Source: Callorhinchus milii (taxonomy: Eukaryota). From it: a stretch of DNA of 64,000 bases. The position numbers are program-made. Below are positions 24,001 through 39,000 of the stretch, piece by piece. The stretch is taken from contig NW_024704745.1 in assembly GCF_018977255.1 (NCBI RefSeq), positions 46,438,001 through 46,502,000 on the forward strand. The letters run 5' to 3'. Position 1 is the stretch's first letter. Every line of letters starts with the position of its first letter.

Positions 24001-27000
24001 TCTCAGAGTGACCCTGATACATAATCTTCAATCAGTTTTGTGGCAATTAGAGCAAAGACAAGATGAAGGCATTATTGTTGGTGACTTGCTGCTGCTGCTA
24101 TTGCTGTATATTTCACAAGTCATTTAGGCTAGTGAGGAAATCCAGGAAAACAAAAGCATATGAAGATATGAATCTAGACAAATAAAAACTGATACTAAAG
24201 TAAAAATGCACAAGGTCAGAATATTGTCAGATTACCGACCAGACAACCAAAGATTTTGGAAGAAAGTGAATCATTTCATCAAACTTTCACATCGGGAGGA
24301 CATCCAAAGTGTTTCATAGAATATACTGTAAAGTGCAGTGACTGTGTGTTTTGTGTGTAAATACAGCAGCCAGTTTGTGCACAGCAACATCCCACAAACA
24401 TGCTTGAAATGAATCATCAATGTTATTTGGAGAATTGTTGGCCAGGACACTGAGAGAAACTCCCCTCTGCCCTTGGCTCCCATCAGCACCTTCTGATCTC
24501 AGGCGCTGACAGCATCAGTATAAATGGATGATCTCTCCACCTCACCGAGCCAGTACATAGCCTTAGTGTTTTGTTCGACTTCCAACTGTCCTTTAAACCC
24601 CATGTCTGTTCCTCATTCCCCAGAGAATCGGGTTCAAGATCCTCATTCTCACTATTAAAGCCCTCCCTACATCTGCGACCTGACAAAATCTTACCAACCT
24701 TTCACTCCCTCCGCTCGGCCGGTGTTGGCCTGCTTCCAGTCCCCCGCCTTGCCCACCCAGTCAGGTTTTCAGCCTTTCTGCTCACCCTCTGGAACTCCAT
24801 TCCTGCAGAGTCCCTTTGCCTCACCTCTTCCCTGGCCCCCTGCAAAGTCCATCTCAAGACCTTCCTCTTTGACATTGCCTTCGACCATCCCCTTCTCCTC
24901 CACCTCTCTTGAATCCAACCCCCAGCTCAGATGCAAACCTTCAACTGTCCAGTGCATAGGGTCGTCCATCCGATGTGAAAGGTGTAACATAATTGTGATT
25001 CGGTGTTGCATTCTATATGTAATACCTTGCTCTGATAACTGGCAAATGAAGTTTCATACAGATAAGGCGTTGACAACATAGGCGCTGACAGCATCAGCAT
25101 CCAAGGCTGTACTCTCCACCTATCAAAGCCAATCAGGAACCTCAGTGTTCTGTTTGACCCTGAGCTGTCCTTTCTTCCCCACATCCGCGCCACAGCTGGC
25201 AATGCCTTCCACCACCTCCGGAACATTGCCAGACTACGGCACTACCTCACCCCTCACGCTGCTGAAACTCTGGTCCACGCCTTTATCACTTCAAGGCTGG
25301 ACTATGGGAACTCTCTCCTCGTCGGCCTTCCCGGCACCTCCCTCCACAAGCTGCAGGTCATTCAGAACTCTGCAGCTCGTGTACTGTCCCGCACCAGGCT
25401 TCGCGACCACATCACTCCCACCCTCGCTCGCCTCCACTGGCTCCCCATCCCCCAGAGGATCGAATTCAAGATCCTCATCCTCACCTACAAGGCCATTCAC
25501 GGCCTCGCTCCCTCCTACCTCTCCGAACTACTATCCCCCCACGTACCTGCCCGTACCCTCCATTTCTCTGGCTCCGGTCTGCTCCACATCCCCCGCCCTA
25601 ACCACCCTACCATCGGTGGCCGGGCCTTCAGCCTCTCAGCCCCCAGGCTCTGGAACTCCATCCCCCAGTGCCTTCGCCGCTCCTCCCTTTCCTCCTTCAA
25701 GGTGGGTCTCAAGACCTTTTTCTTCAACCGTGCCTTCAGCTCCCCTCTCGACTCTCTACCCCCTCATCGCTCCCTCCTTTCACTCCCCTCACCCTAACCA
25801 TTTCCCCCCTGCTCGGGTCCCGACCTAACTGTCCAGTGCCTTGGGACGTCCTTCCGACATGAAAGGCGCTCTATAAATGCAATCTTGTTGTTGTTGTTGT
25901 TGCATTTATCTATATGAAACTTCATTTGCCAGTTATCAGCCAATGATATATACCCTATCATAGACCACAGGCTTCCTTTGTCCTCCCCTTTGCTACCCAA
26001 AATAGCAGGACTTGCTCGCTTGTTGCAGTCCAGAGAAGACATAGGGGCCTGTGAGTTTTCTCACTATGTTTATGTGTGAAACCCTACAGTGTCCCACATT
26101 AGCAGCTTCCGCACTGCCAGTAACCAAAATTAGTTACAATATATAATAATAATAATAATAATAATCCTTGCATTTGATATAGCGCTTTTCACGTCAGGAG
26201 GATGTCCCAAAGCGCTTCACAGAACACACTGTAAAGTGAATTGACTGTATATTTGTGGGCGAAAGCGGCAGCCAATTGCGCACAGCAATGTCCCACAAAC
26301 AGTCGTAGATTGAAAATGACCAATTTATTATTGTTTTTGCTTTGGAGGGATTATTATTAGGCGTGTGGAGTAAGGAAACTTGCCCAAGGTTTCGCCCTGC
26401 ATGGAATTGAACTCAGGTCTCTCGCTTGCAAAGCGAGTGCTCTAAGTAGTTTAGTTTGGAGATTCAGCATGGTGATGGGTTTTCATGTGTGTCAGAAACT
26501 TGGCTTTCCCCCAAATAATGAATCCATTCTCTCATTCAATCTGAAGCATGATGCAACTTCCCCTAATGTGTTGAGAAGGTTTCTCTCATGTGGGACAGGA
26601 AATCTACATCAGATATGAGGATTGAGATACTTATATACTTCAGAAGGCACCTCTGATTGAGCACAGTTCTCCTCAGCTTGAGTGGTATCTATTAATGAGA
26701 ATTTTAAAAGAGAGATACAACAACAACCTGCACTTACATAGCGCCCTCCATGCAGGGTAGGATCTCAGAGCGCTTAGAGATCCAACAAAATTCCTCAAAA
26801 TAAGGTTTTCAGTCAAGTAAAGCAGTGAATGTTGAAATGGAGTCTTTGAAGGAAAGACTGTGGACAACTTTGCTCTTAACAACCATTCGCATTACTCTTC
26901 TACTCCCAGGTAAGTCATGCTTACTTTATTTTTAAGTGTCTCATATTTTAAGGAATCAGCAGGGAGTTTCTTTATTTTTTCTTCATTCCATTCCTGGTGT

Positions 27001-36000: not shown

Positions 36001-39000
36001 TAAAGACATCGAGTGGCCCATGGATGTGATCCCACTGACTTTGAAATTCAGATATTTCAGGGATATTAAGTTACAATGTGTGGTGTAATTTAACCAGCTA
36101 GCCCTGGCATGAAATCTCCTGATTTGCTTCACTAAAGAGTGTGTTGTTCCCACATAAAGGTTGCATACAAAGGTTGGGAGTAGAGCTGAAGTTATCTTGG
36201 GAGATTGCACTGATTAGGATGCTAGAGTGATGGACAGAAGTATTACTACAGACAGCAGAATTGCAGGAACATTGAACAGTAATGTAATAATATGATATAA
36301 TAATAATCCTTGGATTTGGTGTAGCGTATTTTATGTCGGGAGGACATCCCAAGATCTTCACATGATATATTGTGATATTGTACCGTAATATACAAAATGT
36401 GTTTTGTGAGCAATGTTTTGCCCTGTCTAATGATTAGGAAGAATGAGCGATAAGTGGGAGTCACATGTGTTACCCCAGTTACACATGATAAGACCATCCC
36501 ATTCATCTTATTTATGATGCCCAAACAGATCAGGGTACAAGGCTGACTTCAGTTTACAGGAAGGCATTTTGTAAAATGTAAATATGAGACAGTAATCAGA
36601 AGAGGGGAGAAAACAGATATGATTAGAGGTTAGGATTAGAGGTGAATAAAAAGTTTAGAAGATTCATTAAATTATAAAAATAAGGCTTTAGATCAATCAG
36701 TTTTTAAAAATGCTCATGTTTTTCCCTGATGCCTGATAAATACTGTAAATATATGGCTAATAGTATCAACTTTCATGTAAAGTTTACTGTTTGCATTTCA
36801 GATTTAAAATTTGTGGTTTGTGTAATGCTTTCACACATTATATAAATATCTACCACAAGGGATGTGAGTTTCTTGGTCTTTGGGGGAAAGGAAATAAAAC
36901 ATAGTTAGAGATCAAAAAACAAACATCTTCCTCTTTAATTTGCATTTTTATTTTGCTTACAGAAACAATAATTCCTCATGTTCCTGTCAGGTACGTCATC
37001 TATAAAATATTTGAGTTGTTGTAGTCTGCCTTTCTCAGCTGCTTGACCTTATGGTTTATACTCATATGGGGAGAAATTCTATCTTGGTCTAGGTTTTTAT
37101 CGAACAATTCAAAACATCTATAATTTGGTGAATTGTTGACTTTAGTCTTAACTTTGAGCCTTTTTCTGTACTTCCCCAAGCCTGAAACCTCACCCATTCC
37201 GCAATTTGACTACCAAGACTACCAAGACTGAAAGTCAGGTCTGAAGATGAAATGGCTAAAATAATTTAATGAATTGTTTTTCAATTTTTTTTGATCTATC
37301 CTTAACGATTTTCCTTCAGTCACAATTTTTTTTGATCTATCCTTAACGATTTTCCTTCAGTCACAATTAACCATGATCACATGAAAAATTATGGAACCTG
37401 GAAAACTCACTAATATAATTAATCAGCAAAGAATGTGCGTATTTATGTTATAACATAGGCAGATGAAATCTCTGAGTTTTTGGTATTCAAATACAATTTG
37501 GACGATTTTAAGAAATAAGCCAAGAACAACAGCAACAAGATTACATTTGTATAGGGCCTTTCACATCGGGAGGAATAGAAAGAAGGAATAGAAAGAGGCC
37601 ATTAGGCCACTGAAGTCTGTCCTACAACTTTATAAGATATGGCAGTTCTTTTAATGGTCTTTGGTTGCCTAACTTGATGTAATCTGAAAATTTAAAAATC
37701 TTCCAATGTGTCTGCAAATCCAGATCAATAATGTATACATGGAACAGAAGATCTCCCAGTACAGATCTCTGAGACACCACTCTTAATAACGTAACCACAA
37801 TTTGACTGAACTGGTCTAATGACTTCCCTTCACTTCCTTCAGCCAATTTTGAATCCATGTCCATACCTCACCCTTGAAACCCAGTGACATTGGTTTGTAT
37901 AAGATTCTCAGATACTTGTCAAACATCTTTTGTAAGTCTAGGTATACTATGTATATGGATTCCCACATCAAAACAAATCTATGTGGTTGATTAGACAAGA
38001 TCTTATGAAGCCGCGCTGGCTCTTATTTATTAGGTTATCATTATAATTCATTCCATTAGCTTTACAATCATTGAGGTCAGGCTAATGGCTCTGTGGTTGT
38101 CAGGTATGGCTCTGTCACCGTTCTTAAGGGTAGCACATTTTCTCGATGGGGATAAAGCAATAGTTATAGCAAAAGCAATGCTCTGAGACATCCTCCCAAC
38201 AGTGAAAGGTGCTATATATTGAAAATGTAAACTCTTTTTGCATTGCTTGGACTTCAAAATGAACCCCCTGATCTATGTTTATCTTACAGAAAGAGACCAA
38301 ATCGGATGAATCCGTCACATATCTAGAGAACATCGTCTATGATTCACTGCAACTGTACAAGCCAAACTGTACAAGAAGAGAACTCTGAATGGTTACTGGA
38401 GAAGTAGTGTTCTGTTAAATTATGGCTAATGAAGTGTTAATTATCACCTGGAGTACTTATCATATTGGCAATAAATTTAGCCAATGTGATCAGTTGGTGT
38501 TTGGGGTCTGTCTGGACCACTCTCCCTCCTCCTCCTACCACCACCACCCCCCCACCCCCCCCCCCCCCCCCCCACCCCACTTACAATGAGCAGTGGACTG
38601 TCAGTTCACAAAATACTGCCGTAACTTTGATTTTTGTTGTTGGGATAAGGCAGTATCCTGCAGACCTGCACTCAGTCCAGTGGCCTCCAATTACACGTTT
38701 GGACAGAGTCGGAGTCACAGCCATAGGAAATCCTTCAACTCGGTATTGACTAATTGCCTTTATCAATGATACGATAATAATTAGCACCAAAGTTAATTAA
38801 CACATCACTAGGCACAATTGTCTATTCTGCTGTAAAGTGTTTGACTGGCAAGTTGCTGTGTGCTTCAACAGGAATTTTTTACTAGACAATTCATCCATAG
38901 AAAAGCTGTTGGAGTGGAAGACAAGCAGACATTGCTTGTGAGAGCATGTGTGTGGGTTGGAGTGGGGTGGTGAGTGGTTGTTAGGAATAGGAATAACTCG

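What the first reader, a model, noticed from the sequence alone, without database searches (positions are those of the whole stretch)
26837..38388. Complete, apparently intact CD200R-like checkpoint receptor in a putative cartilaginous-fish locus
The full 312-aa model is invisible in the ORF track except for two Ig exons, because the signal, TM and tail exons are short. Intact splicing, heavy N-glycosylation and three tail tyrosines argue for function. If the host is a chondrichthyan, this informs the origin of CD200-CD200R myeloid inhibition at the base of jawed vertebrates.
Basis: partly seen in the sequence, partly recalled or inferred. Interest (0 to 1): 0.68.

Follow-up and report, generated by a model that had tools for sequence, protein, structure and literature searches.

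The report
Elephant-shark CD200 receptor gene, already annotated
The window holds an intact six-exon gene for a two-domain immune receptor of the CD200-receptor family from the elephant shark, identical to a protein model already in the public RefSeq annotation, so it is real but not new.

Summary
Six + strand exons (26837-38388) with GT-AG introns and compatible phases encode 312 aa: signal peptide, V-set Ig, C2-set Ig, one membrane span and a 46-residue tail. Every exon matches XP_007901225.1, [quoted passage not shown], also 312 aa. So the host is a cartilaginous fish and the model is already annotated.

Family assignment:
- For CD200R: the V exon's best solved relatives are mouse CD200R4 and CD200R1. 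A chondrichthyan profile aligns with a mammalian CD200R profile over 256 columns (99.9%, E 5e-31). The tail keeps the CD200R Asn-x-x-Tyr core.
- Against a clean assignment: the C2 exon is closer to nectin-3. The chondrichthyan profile scores nectin-3 and CD200R1 equally, at 92 bits.
- Nectin-3 is also the nearest non-self relative of mammalian CD200R. I could fetch no nectin or CD200 sequence, so no tree tests the split.

The tail Tyr sits in Ile-x-Tyr-x-x-Leu, an ITIM consensus overlapping NxxY. Only this one of the three tail tyrosines is conserved. The gene is most likely an inhibitory CD200R1-type receptor. Ligand, expression and signalling are untested. Interest is low to moderate.

The parts
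26837..26909 (+). Exon 1: start codon and signal peptide (24 codons + 1 base, phase 1), donor gtaagt
   Evidence: It aligns with the N-termini of elasmobranch homologues, 11/24 identical to Heptranchias and to Hypanus.
33644..33997 (+). Exon 2: V-set Ig domain (354 nt, phase 1 to 1). It has 4 N-glycosylation sequons, B/F-strand Cys49 and Cys124, and an extra Cys80/Cys100 pair (codons 33808-33810 and 33868-33870).
   Evidence: Pfam V-set 1.3e-10. Best PDB sequence hits are mouse CD200R4 (9.9e-5) and CD200R1 (3.6e-4). AlphaFold model pLDDT 79.9. Foldseek ranks 1-2, 4, 5 and 7 are CD200R-family chains.
34588..34857 (+). Exon 3: C2-set Ig domain (270 nt, phase 1 to 1), 5 sequons, Cys163/Cys215 plus unpaired Cys151
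   Evidence: Pfam C2-set_2 2.9e-10. Best PDB hit is nectin-3 domain 2 at 9e-11, against CD200R1 at 3.6e-5. It is 41-52% identical to elasmobranch homologues.
35794..35908 (+). Exon 4: Ser/Pro stalk, membrane span (about 35829-35894, residues 245-266) and stop-transfer His-Lys-Gln-Leu-Arg. It leaves in phase 2.
   Evidence: It has the highest 19-residue hydropathy (2.28) of all frames between exon 3 and the stop.. Lys263 aligns with an Arg at the cytoplasmic end of the span in bamboo shark.
36963..36990 (+). Exon 5: 28-nt juxtamembrane micro-exon (Asn/Ser/Cys-rich), phase 2 to 0
   Evidence: It corresponds to the Arg-Asn-Cys-Cys stretch of elasmobranch homologues and the Arg-Lys-Cys-Lys stretch of mammals in the profile alignment.
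38290..38388 (+). Exon 6: cytoplasmic tail with Tyr291, Tyr297 and Tyr303, and stop codon 38386-38388
   Evidence: It aligns with the tails of bamboo shark, zebra shark, sevengill shark and stingray homologues.
38329..38349 (+). Tail signalling core Asn294-Ile-Val-Tyr297-Asp-Ser-Leu300. An NxxY motif overlaps an ITIM consensus (I-x-Y-x-x-L).
   Evidence: N-x-x-Y-[DE]-[ST] is present in the tail of the window protein, 5 elasmobranch rows and the mammalian CD200R1 rows. Its only other occurrence among the 201 stored proteins is inside Ig domains of 1 unrelated protein. The Asn and Tyr columns are aligned by hhalign.
38470..38475 (+). AATAAA hexamer 82 nt after the stop, a possible polyadenylation signal
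   Evidence: Read. This is a motif match only; its function was not tested.

Best explanation
This is the elephant-shark (Callorhinchus milii) member of the CD200-receptor family, of the long-tailed, inhibitory (CD200R1) type. It is a heavily N-glycosylated type I membrane protein.

Inferred mechanism: its membrane-distal V domain binds a CD200-like ligand on another cell. Ligation leads to phosphorylation of Tyr297, the one tail tyrosine conserved from chimaera to mammals. In mammals the homologous phosphotyrosine (NPxY) recruits Dok2 and RasGAP and damps Ras/Erk and Akt signalling. Here the same tyrosine lies in Asn-Ile-Val-Tyr-Asp-Ser-Leu. That context keeps the NxxY docking core for PTB domains and also fits the ITIM consensus for SH2 phosphatases. 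Either or both routes may carry the inhibitory signal.

Shown here: gene structure, intactness, domain content, host, homology to CD200R along the whole length, and conservation of the tail core.

Inferred: ligand, phosphorylation, adaptor choice, cell type and the inhibitory outcome.
For: - Gene model: six exons, GT-AG introns, 312 aa, identical to XP_007901225.1.
- Domains: V-set and C2-set_2 and a single hydrophobic span.
- V exon by sequence: the best solved relatives are mouse CD200R4 and CD200R1, and human CD200R1 is also hit. No nectin or CD200 is among the 60 listed of 207 matches.
- V exon by fold: CD200R-family chains take ranks 1-2, 4, 5 and 7, with the highest identities at 24-28%.
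- V-exon phmmer over 1.84 billion representatives gave 70 hits. Of the 10 short ones I looked up, 4 clusters carry CD200R names (shark, squirrel, dugong, frog), 1 is 'nectin-3-like', 2 are B7-like and 3 are uninformative.
- A profile of three relatives, with no window row, finds 147 proteins. Most of the 120 listed are named CD200 receptor and none is named nectin. It scores the window's own Ensembl model at 6.4e-41.
- hhalign of the chondrichthyan alignment (window V and C2 exons as separate rows plus 8 elasmobranch proteins) against 13 mammalian CD200R: 99.86%, E 5e-31, 256 columns from the V domain to the tail. The Asn and Tyr of the motif fall in the same columns.
- Tail core: N-x-x-Y-[DE]-[ST] is shared by the window protein, 5 elasmobranch rows and the mammalian CD200R1 rows.
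- PMC8007030 (abstract and sections 3, 5, 14 read, plus passages found for ITIM) reports Y297 and N294 conserved in all five classes studied, P295 conserved in mammals only, and an overlapping ITIM in birds.
- Extra Cys80/Cys100 lie at the end of predicted strand C' and in the loop after C''. PMC3664923 (passages seen) places the extra CD200R disulfide there.
- There is no charged residue in the outer or middle part of the membrane span. Lys263 aligns with a boundary Arg of shark homologues. The squirrel activating-type CD200R2 has a Lys inside its span and a short tail.
Against: - The C2 exon matches nectin-3 domain 2 much better (44.9 bits, 9e-11) than CD200R1 (27 bits, 3.6e-5).
- The chondrichthyan profile scores mouse nectin-3 (92.3 bits), CD200R1 (92.0) and CD200R4 (91.7) equally.
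- V-exon hits to CD200R are weak (E about 1e-4) and cover mainly the C-terminal half of the domain.
- The tree had no nectin or CD200 rows. It left the window protein unresolved at the base of the chondrichthyan sequences.
- The mammalian extended motif EEDExxPYxxYxxKxNxxY is matched only at Asn and Tyr. Pro285, Tyr286, Tyr289 and Lys/Arg292 have no same-position counterpart (PMC8007030).
- The D-E disulfide of the mammalian C2 domain is absent.
- No expression data, no ligand gene and no neighbouring gene for synteny were available. A tblastn of 150 stored Ig proteins found only this gene's exons in the window.
Confidence: 0.72

Rival explanations
1. It is a two-domain offshoot of the nectin-3 lineage and not a CD200R orthologue. 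On this reading it is an ITIM-bearing inhibitory receptor that binds a nectin/PVR-type ligand, working like TIGIT or PVRIG. The CD200R name is an artefact of automatic best-hit naming.
For: - The C2 exon's best solved relative is nectin-3, then nectin-1, ahead of CD200R.
- The family profile ties nectin-3 with CD200R1 at 92 bits.
- A catshark relative of similar length (303 aa, 39% identical over the V domain) is named nectin-3-like by RefSeq.
- The tail tyrosine fits the ITIM consensus.
- No tree with nectins could be built.
Against: - Nectin-3 is also the best non-self hit of a purely mammalian CD200R profile (52 bits). The tie is therefore expected if the two families are close kin and the fish sequences are less derived.
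- The V exon hits CD200R, and no nectin is listed by sequence. Nectin-3 is only rank 17 by fold.
- There are only two Ig exons and no third Ig exon in the window.
- The tail core is shared with mammalian CD200R1 and falls in the same profile columns.
- The C-terminus (Arg-Glu-Leu) does not fit the afadin-binding end of nectins. That end is recalled from memory and was not checked by any search.
Confidence: 0.15
2. It is an activating, adaptor-coupled paired receptor, as the RefSeq name 'CD200 receptor 2' would suggest. It would signal through a DAP12-like partner.
For: The RefSeq name. There is a Lys (residue 263) near the end of the hydrophobic span.
Against: - Lys263 is residue 19 of a 22-residue span, is followed by His-Lys-Gln-Leu-Arg, and aligns with the boundary Arg of shark homologues.
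- The squirrel CD200R2 has its Lys in the first third of the span and a tail of about ten residues.
- The window protein has a 46-residue tail with the conserved inhibitory-type tyrosine core.
Confidence: 0.04
3. The locus is an untranscribed or decaying copy, and the model is a gene-prediction artefact.
For: No transcript evidence could be examined here. Three Ensembl/UniProt models of the same locus are truncated or read into introns and repeats. Intron 1 is 6.7 kb and full of SINE and LINE copies.
Against: - All six exons are open with canonical splice sites.
- Exon 1, both Ig exons and the tail exon are each conserved against elasmobranch proteins.
- The structural cysteines, the Trp of the V domain and the tail core are kept.
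Confidence: 0.05

Closest known systems
Mammalian CD200R1 (inhibitory CD200 receptor; solved as 4BFG, 4BFI, 9GWT)
   Same: - Signal peptide, V-set, C2-set, one membrane span and a tyrosine-bearing tail.
- Heavy N-glycosylation.
- An extra cysteine pair in the V domain in the C' / post-C'' region.
- The tail core Asn-x-x-Tyr-Asp-Ser/Thr.
- Full-length profile alignment at E 5e-31.
   Different: - The proline of NPxY is Ile, which makes an ITIM-type I-x-Y-x-x-L.
- The upstream EEDE, Pro-Tyr, second Tyr and Lys of the mammalian motif are not at matching positions.
- There is no D-E disulfide in the C2 domain.
- The C2 domain is nearer to nectin-3.
- The whole protein is 36% identical to its bamboo-shark homologue. 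Identity to the CD200R-family chains ranked 1-2, 4, 5 and 7 in the V-exon fold alignments is 21-28%.
Elasmobranch 'CD200 receptor 1-B-like / 2-like' RefSeq proteins (for example Chiloscyllium plagiosum XP_043556713.1)
   Same: - Same architecture.
- 30-38% (V) and 41-52% (C2) identity.
- Both extra V-domain cysteines lie in the same columns.
- The tail core Glu-Asn-x-x-Tyr-Asp/Glu-Ser/Thr-x-Gln is shared in 5 of the 12 elasmobranch rows inspected. Only those 5 rows reach this part of the tail.
   Different: - Elasmobranchs have Phe where the window has no aligned Tyr.
- Tyr291 and Tyr303 of the window protein are not conserved.
- Bamboo, zebra and epaulette shark have Phe at -2 and +3, which is not a canonical ITIM.
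- The tree leaves the chimaera sequence outside the elasmobranch clade (92/98), as the species tree would predict.
Nectin-3 (solved as 5B22, 4FOM)
   Same: The second Ig domain is the best solved match of the window's C2 exon. The V-C2 pair ties with CD200R against the chondrichthyan profile. Nectin-3 is also the nearest non-self relative of mammalian CD200R.
   Different: Nectins have three Ig domains and a long adhesion-type tail (recalled, not checked by a call). The window gene has two Ig exons and a short signalling tail. Neither extra V-domain cysteine has a partner in the nectin-3 alignment.
Avian CD200R with an ITIM overlapping NxxY (PMC8007030, discussion passage seen)
   Same: A hydrophobic or small residue replaces the proline and a hydrophobic residue sits at +3, so that an ITIM consensus overlaps the NxxY core.
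   Different: It is a different lineage with different residues. The authors speculate that the bird ITIM is not functional. Nothing has been tested for cartilaginous fish.

Membership tests
CD200 receptor family (CD200R1 type) | Type I membrane protein: signal peptide, one V-set and one C2-set Ig domain, single membrane span | tested here: met
   Pfam V-set 1.3e-10 and C2-set_2 2.9e-10. Hydrophobic span in exon 4. No third Ig exon.
CD200 receptor family (CD200R1 type) | V domain most similar to CD200R among characterised proteins | tested here: met
   By sequence, the PDB best hits are CD200R4 at 9.9e-5 and CD200R1 at 3.6e-4. By fold, ranks 1-2, 4, 5 and 7 are CD200R-family chains. The margins are small.
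CD200 receptor family (CD200R1 type) | Extra cysteine pair in the V domain linking strand C' to the C''-D loop (PMC3664923, passage seen) | tested here: met
   Cys80 lies at the end of predicted strand C' and Cys100 in the loop after C''. Both are nearly invariant in elasmobranch homologues. The bond itself is inferred. The HMM alignment to mouse CD200R1 puts the cysteines a few columns apart.
CD200 receptor family (CD200R1 type) | Extra D-E disulfide in the C2 domain ('largely conserved in mammals', PMC3664923) | tested here: not met
   The C2 exon has Cys151, Cys163 and Cys215 only, with no pair between the B and F cysteines. It is absent from elasmobranch homologues too.
CD200 receptor family (CD200R1 type) | Tail with invariant Asn-x-x-Tyr (human N294, Y297) | tested here: met
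   Asn294-Ile-Val-Tyr297. The same columns as the mammalian motif in hhalign. Motif scan.
CD200 receptor family (CD200R1 type) | Extended motif EEDExxPYxxYxxKxNxxY, with three conserved tyrosines (PMC8007030; defined for mammals) | tested here: not met
   Only Asn and the last Tyr match by position. Asp286-Glu287 is a short acidic remnant. Tyr291 is at -6 instead of -8. There is no Pro-Tyr at -12/-11 and no Lys/Arg at -5.
CD200 receptor family (CD200R1 type) | Groups with CD200R to the exclusion of nectins and CD200 in a tree | tested here: inconclusive
   The tree of 30 rows had only B7-like outgroups. The PDB profile scores tie nectin-3 with CD200R1. CD200 is not among the best 60.
CD200 receptor family (CD200R1 type) | Binds CD200 | not testable with these tools
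No complex job was sent.
CD200 receptor family (CD200R1 type) | Conserved gene neighbourhood | not testable with these tools
   The 64-kb window holds no other recognisable gene, only LINE and SINE copies. No eukaryotic genome collection is on hand.
Nectins (nectin-3) | Three Ig domains (V-C2-C2) | tested here: not met
   There are two Ig exons. Intron 3 is 936 bp with no Ig-like frame. tblastn with 150 Ig proteins finds no further Ig exon.
Nectins (nectin-3) | Second Ig domain of nectin type | tested here: met
   C2 exon against nectin-3 D2: 9e-11, 44.9 bits, ahead of CD200R1 at 27 bits.
CD200 (the ligand) | Exposed F-G disulfide in the V domain (PMC3664923, passage seen) and a short tail without signalling motifs (recalled; no call checked it) | tested here: not met
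   There is one Cys in the F-G region (Cys124) and none in strand G. The tail is 46 residues with a tyrosine motif. CD200 is absent from the listed PDB hits.
Activating CD200R-like receptors (adaptor-coupled) | Basic residue within the membrane span and a very short tail | tested here: not met
   The only basic residue, Lys263, is at the cytoplasmic boundary and aligns with a boundary Arg in shark. Compare the squirrel CD200R2.
ITIM-bearing inhibitory receptors (functional class) | (I/V/L/S)-x-Y-x-x-(I/V/L) in the cytoplasmic tail | tested here: met
   Ile295-Val-Tyr297-Asp-Ser-Leu300. It is also canonical in the sevengill shark and the stingray, and not canonical (Phe at -2 and +3) in bamboo, zebra and epaulette shark. 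Phosphatase binding was not tested.

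The most novel reading that the evidence does not exclude
The ancestral jawed-vertebrate CD200R was a little-derived, two-domain offshoot of a nectin-3-like gene. Its single conserved tail tyrosine sat in a dual NxxY/ITIM context (I/L-x-Y-x-x-L, kept in chimaera, sevengill shark and stingray). Early CD200R could therefore signal through SH2 phosphatases as well as PTB adaptors. The ITIM-independent Dok2/RasGAP route that makes mammalian CD200R unusual would then be a later specialisation.
Probability: 0.25. Interest if true: 0.5.

Novelty: already known. Interest (0 to 1): 0.22.

Why it matters
The window adds nothing to the catalogue. The gene, its exon structure and its CD200R name are already in RefSeq, and homologues are annotated across sharks and rays.

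Its value is comparative. No paper in the searched library treats CD200R of cartilaginous fish. [quoted passage not shown]

The chimaera and elasmobranch sequences show two things. First, only the Asn-x-x-Tyr-Asp/Glu-Ser/Thr core goes back to the base of jawed vertebrates. Second, in three of the six chondrichthyan sequences that carry it, this core doubles as an ITIM. That makes the question of how CD200R came to signal without an ITIM testable with a few phosphopeptides.

The ectodomain's equal closeness to nectin-3 and CD200R also bears on the origin of the family.

Tried and rejected
- Exon-by-exon word-index searches found only the locus's own C. milii models.
- The V-exon phmmer search of 1.84 billion representatives was dominated by giant multi-Ig proteins. 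Only a handful of short relatives were useful.
- The ESM Atlas gave only generic V-set or C2-set clusters for both Ig exons, with one CD200R-like cluster at rank 5 for V.
- The Foldseek search with the C2-exon model (pLDDT 71) returned only generic constant-type Ig folds: MHC class II beta-2 and ZAG, E of 7e-4 or weaker. It does not discriminate.
- The last cluster look-up, meant to find a nectin or CD200 outgroup among the stored hits, found none. It returned a paddlefish 'NCAM2-like' protein, HHLA2, obscurin-like and unnamed proteins. So no tree with nectins or CD200 could be built.
- mafft --addfragments misplaced the short exons 4 and 5. Their homology rests instead.
I fixed the coordinates by reading the window instead.
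- I did not search with the joined 312-aa model. Searches of public collections used single exons, or alignments in which the exons are separate rows.
- No complex prediction was sent, because no ligand sequence was on hand.
- TIGIT-like identity was considered because of the two tyrosines six residues apart with an ITIM at the second; the comparison with TIGIT's tail is recalled. I rejected it because no TIGIT chain is among the listed V-domain hits and the protein has a C2 domain.

Full report
**What is in the sequence.** The window is methylated vertebrate DNA: G+C is about 0.40 and CpG observed/expected is 0.31. It holds four single N, all outside the gene's exons.

Between 26837 and 38388 on the + strand there are six exons:

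| Exon | Coordinates | Content |
|---|---|---|
| 1 | 26837-26909 | ATG, signal peptide |
| 2 | 33644-33997 | V-set Ig domain |
| 3 | 34588-34857 | C2-set Ig domain |
| 4 | 35794-35908 | stalk and membrane span |
| 5 | 36963-36990 | 28-nt micro-exon |
| 6 | 38290-38388 | tail and stop codon |

All five introns are GT...AG with pyrimidine-rich acceptors. The junction phases are 1, 1, 1, 2, 0. The coding sum is 939 nt, or 312 codons plus the stop. Pfam gives V-set at 1.3e-10 and C2-set_2 at 2.9e-10, both above the curated cut-offs. Exon 4 holds the most hydrophobic 19-residue stretch downstream of exon 3. There are ten N-x-S/T sequons before or at the membrane, and three tail tyrosines at residues 291, 297 and 303.

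**Whose gene it is, and that it is already annotated.** Searched exon by exon, the V and C2 exons are 100% identical to three UniProt/Ensembl models of Callorhinchus milii. The 90% cluster of one of these models also holds XP_007901225.1, [quoted passage not shown], which is 312 aa.

The whole codons of all six exons occur letter for letter and in order in that record. The four split codons, read by eye, agree as well. The three Ensembl models are poorer: two run through the exon-3 donor into the intron, and one starts in a repeat. I did not search with the joined model. The RefSeq record served only for local comparison, alignment and the tree.

**Is it a CD200 receptor? Evidence for.**
- The V exon's best solved relatives by sequence are mouse CD200R4 (9.9e-5) and CD200R1 (3.6e-4), with human CD200R1 also hit. 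No nectin and no CD200 appears among the 60 listed of 207 matches.
- An AlphaFold model of the V exon (pLDDT 79.9) finds CD200R-family chains at Foldseek ranks 1-2, 4, 5 and 7, with the highest identities at 24-28%. Nectin-1 D1 is rank 3 and nectin-3 is rank 17.
- A phmmer scan of 1.84 billion representatives gave 70 hits at E of 1e-3 or better, most of them giant multi-Ig proteins. I looked up 10 short ones. Four clusters carry CD200R names (bamboo shark, squirrel, dugong, poison frog). One is a catshark "nectin-3-like" protein, two are B7-like and three are uninformative.
- A profile of three of these relatives, with no window row, found 147 proteins. Most of the 120 listed are named CD200 receptor and none is named nectin. 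Together they cover ten elasmobranch species. The profile scores the window's own model at 6.4e-41.
- A profile-profile comparison set the chondrichthyan alignment (window V and C2 exons as separate rows plus eight elasmobranch proteins) against 13 mammalian CD200R. It gives 99.86% probability, E 5e-31 and 256 aligned columns running from the V domain through the membrane span into the tail.

**Evidence against a clean assignment.**
- The C2 exon matches nectin-3 domain 2 far better (9e-11, 44.9 bits) than CD200R1 (3.6e-5, 27 bits).
- The chondrichthyan profile scores mouse nectin-3 at 92.3 bits, mouse CD200R1 at 92.0, CD200R4 at 91.7, human nectin-3 at 89.6 and human CD200R1 at 82.3. The next hits are at 54 bits or less.
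- This is less damaging than it looks. A purely mammalian CD200R profile also has nectin-3 as its best non-self hit (52 and 47 bits), and does not reach CD200 at E of 1e-3. The two families are therefore each other's nearest solved kin, and the fish sequences look less derived.
My tree of 30 rows therefore has only B7-like outgroups. It recovers mammals (100/100) and elasmobranchs (92/98). It leaves the window protein and the catshark "nectin-3-like" protein unresolved at the base. That agrees with the species tree but does not test the nectin alternative.

**Characters that decide for CD200R.**
1. Architecture. There are two Ig exons only. Intron 3 is 936 bp with no Ig frame, and 150 stored Ig proteins find no other Ig exon in the window.
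2. An extra cysteine pair in the V domain (Cys80, Cys100). Cys80 lies at the end of predicted strand C' and Cys100 in the loop after C''. The CD200R crystal-structure paper places the additional disulfide there (PMC3664923, passages seen). Both cysteines are nearly invariant in elasmobranch homologues and have no partner in the nectin-3 alignment. The F-G disulfide typical of CD200 is absent. So is the mammalian D-E disulfide of the C2 domain.
3. The tail. Asn294-Ile-Val-Tyr297-Asp-Ser-Leu aligns with NFIYDSF in bamboo, zebra and epaulette shark, NIIYETL in sevengill shark and NLIYETL in stingray. It also aligns with NPLYDT in the mammalian CD200R1 rows. Among the 201 stored proteins, N-x-x-Y-[DE]-[ST] otherwise occurs only inside Ig domains of one unrelated protein.

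[quoted passage not shown] I read its abstract and sections 3, 5 and 14, plus found passages. It reports that Tyr297 and Asn294 are conserved throughout, that Pro295 is conserved in mammals only, and that birds have an ITIM overlapping NxxY.

The window protein fits that picture and extends it to the base of jawed vertebrates. The rest of the mammalian motif (EEDExxPYxxYxxKxNxxY) is not matched by position.

**How it most likely works.** Shown here: an intact gene for a glycosylated type I receptor with a V-C2 ectodomain, a membrane span without an internal charge, and a 46-residue tail with one deeply conserved tyrosine. Lys263 sits at the cytoplasmic boundary and aligns with an Arg in shark.

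Inferred from the mammalian family (PMC8007030, introduction): the V domain engages a CD200-like ligand, Tyr297 is phosphorylated, and an inhibitory signal follows. In mammals this runs through Dok2 and RasGAP without an ITIM. Here the tyrosine lies in I-x-Y-x-x-L, so SH2 phosphatases are a plausible second or alternative route. The RefSeq name "receptor 2" suggests an activating, adaptor-coupled form, and the sequence does not support that. The squirrel CD200R2 has a lysine inside its span and a short tail; the window protein has neither.

**Surroundings.** No other gene is recognisable in the 64 kb. The flanks and intron 1 are filled with interspersed repeats:
- Three tRNA-headed SINE copies (19908, 30929 and 58850, all on the + strand) share a body of 170-190 nt (families D4, D6, D8, D14).
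- Several LINE fragments are present. Two carry reverse-transcriptase matches (59653-60579 on the - strand, 44617-45153 on the + strand), and their 3' tails are repeated.

**Verdict.** The finding is real, correctly read and correctly placed in a cartilaginous fish. It is already annotated, and it belongs to a family annotated across chondrichthyans. Its modest interest lies in the ITIM/NxxY overlap at the one ancient tail tyrosine and in the nectin-3-like C2 domain. Neither has been treated in the searched literature. What stays open is a proper tree with nectins and CD200, synteny, transcripts, the ligand and the adaptor.

Noticed in passing
window 19908-19970, 30929-30996, 58850-58921 (+), each with about 170-190 nt downstream: Three tRNA-like heads pass the Rfam tRNA gathering score (36-50 bits). 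Each is followed by a shared body (repeat families D4, D6, D8, D14, up to 8 copies). This is a tRNA-derived SINE family, and one copy lies in intron 1 of the receptor gene.
   Followed up: partly
window 59653-60579 (-), 44617-45153 (+); repeated tails at about 8.4-9.0, 11.5-12.8, 24.5-25.9, 32.7-33.1, 45.2-46.5, 51.3-52.2, 56.1-56.6 kb: LINE fragments with reverse-transcriptase matches (RVT_1 at 4e-13 and 4e-8) and many copies of the element's 3' end. The block at 44-48 kb coincides with the strongest GC skew in the window (-0.30).
   Followed up: partly
window 33607-34904, against UniProt A0A4W3H9W7, A0A4W3H580 and A0A4W3H575: The three Ensembl-derived models of this locus are truncated. Two read through the exon-3 donor into the intron and end there. 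One starts in a repeat-derived frame and continues into intron 3. Only the RefSeq model has the membrane span and tail.
   Followed up: yes
stored protein P0063 (Scyliorhinus canicula XP_038657168.1, 'nectin-3-like protein isoform X2', 303 aa): This is a V-C2 relative, 39% identical to the window's V exon, but with a different tail. Its single tyrosine is in a Y-x-N-M context, and it has a different extra-cysteine pattern. It may be a paired or paralogous receptor of the same family in sharks. Its automatic name shows how close the family is to nectin-3.
   Followed up: partly
stored proteins P0069 / P0202 (Polyodon spathula, 'neural cell adhesion molecule 2-like', 652 / 723 aa): The paddlefish model consists of three nearly identical V-C2 units. 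Each matches the window's C2 exon at about 42 bits and carries a CD200R-like cysteine pair in V. They are followed by one membrane span and a very short tail. It is probably a CD200R-like gene, or a collapsed tandem array, under a misleading name.
   Followed up: partly
window 50513-51133, both strands: A low-complexity stretch reads as long His/Thr-rich and poly-Pro frames. It is a simple-sequence repeat and not a gene.
   Followed up: no
elasmobranch homologues P0089, P0090, P0091, P0106, P0097, P0196: Six of the 12 elasmobranch rows inspected end in other C-termini without the conserved tyrosine core. These may be alternative last exons, tail-less isoforms or incomplete predictions. The seventh row without the core is the catshark paralogue P0063 described above, which has a different tail.
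   Followed up: no
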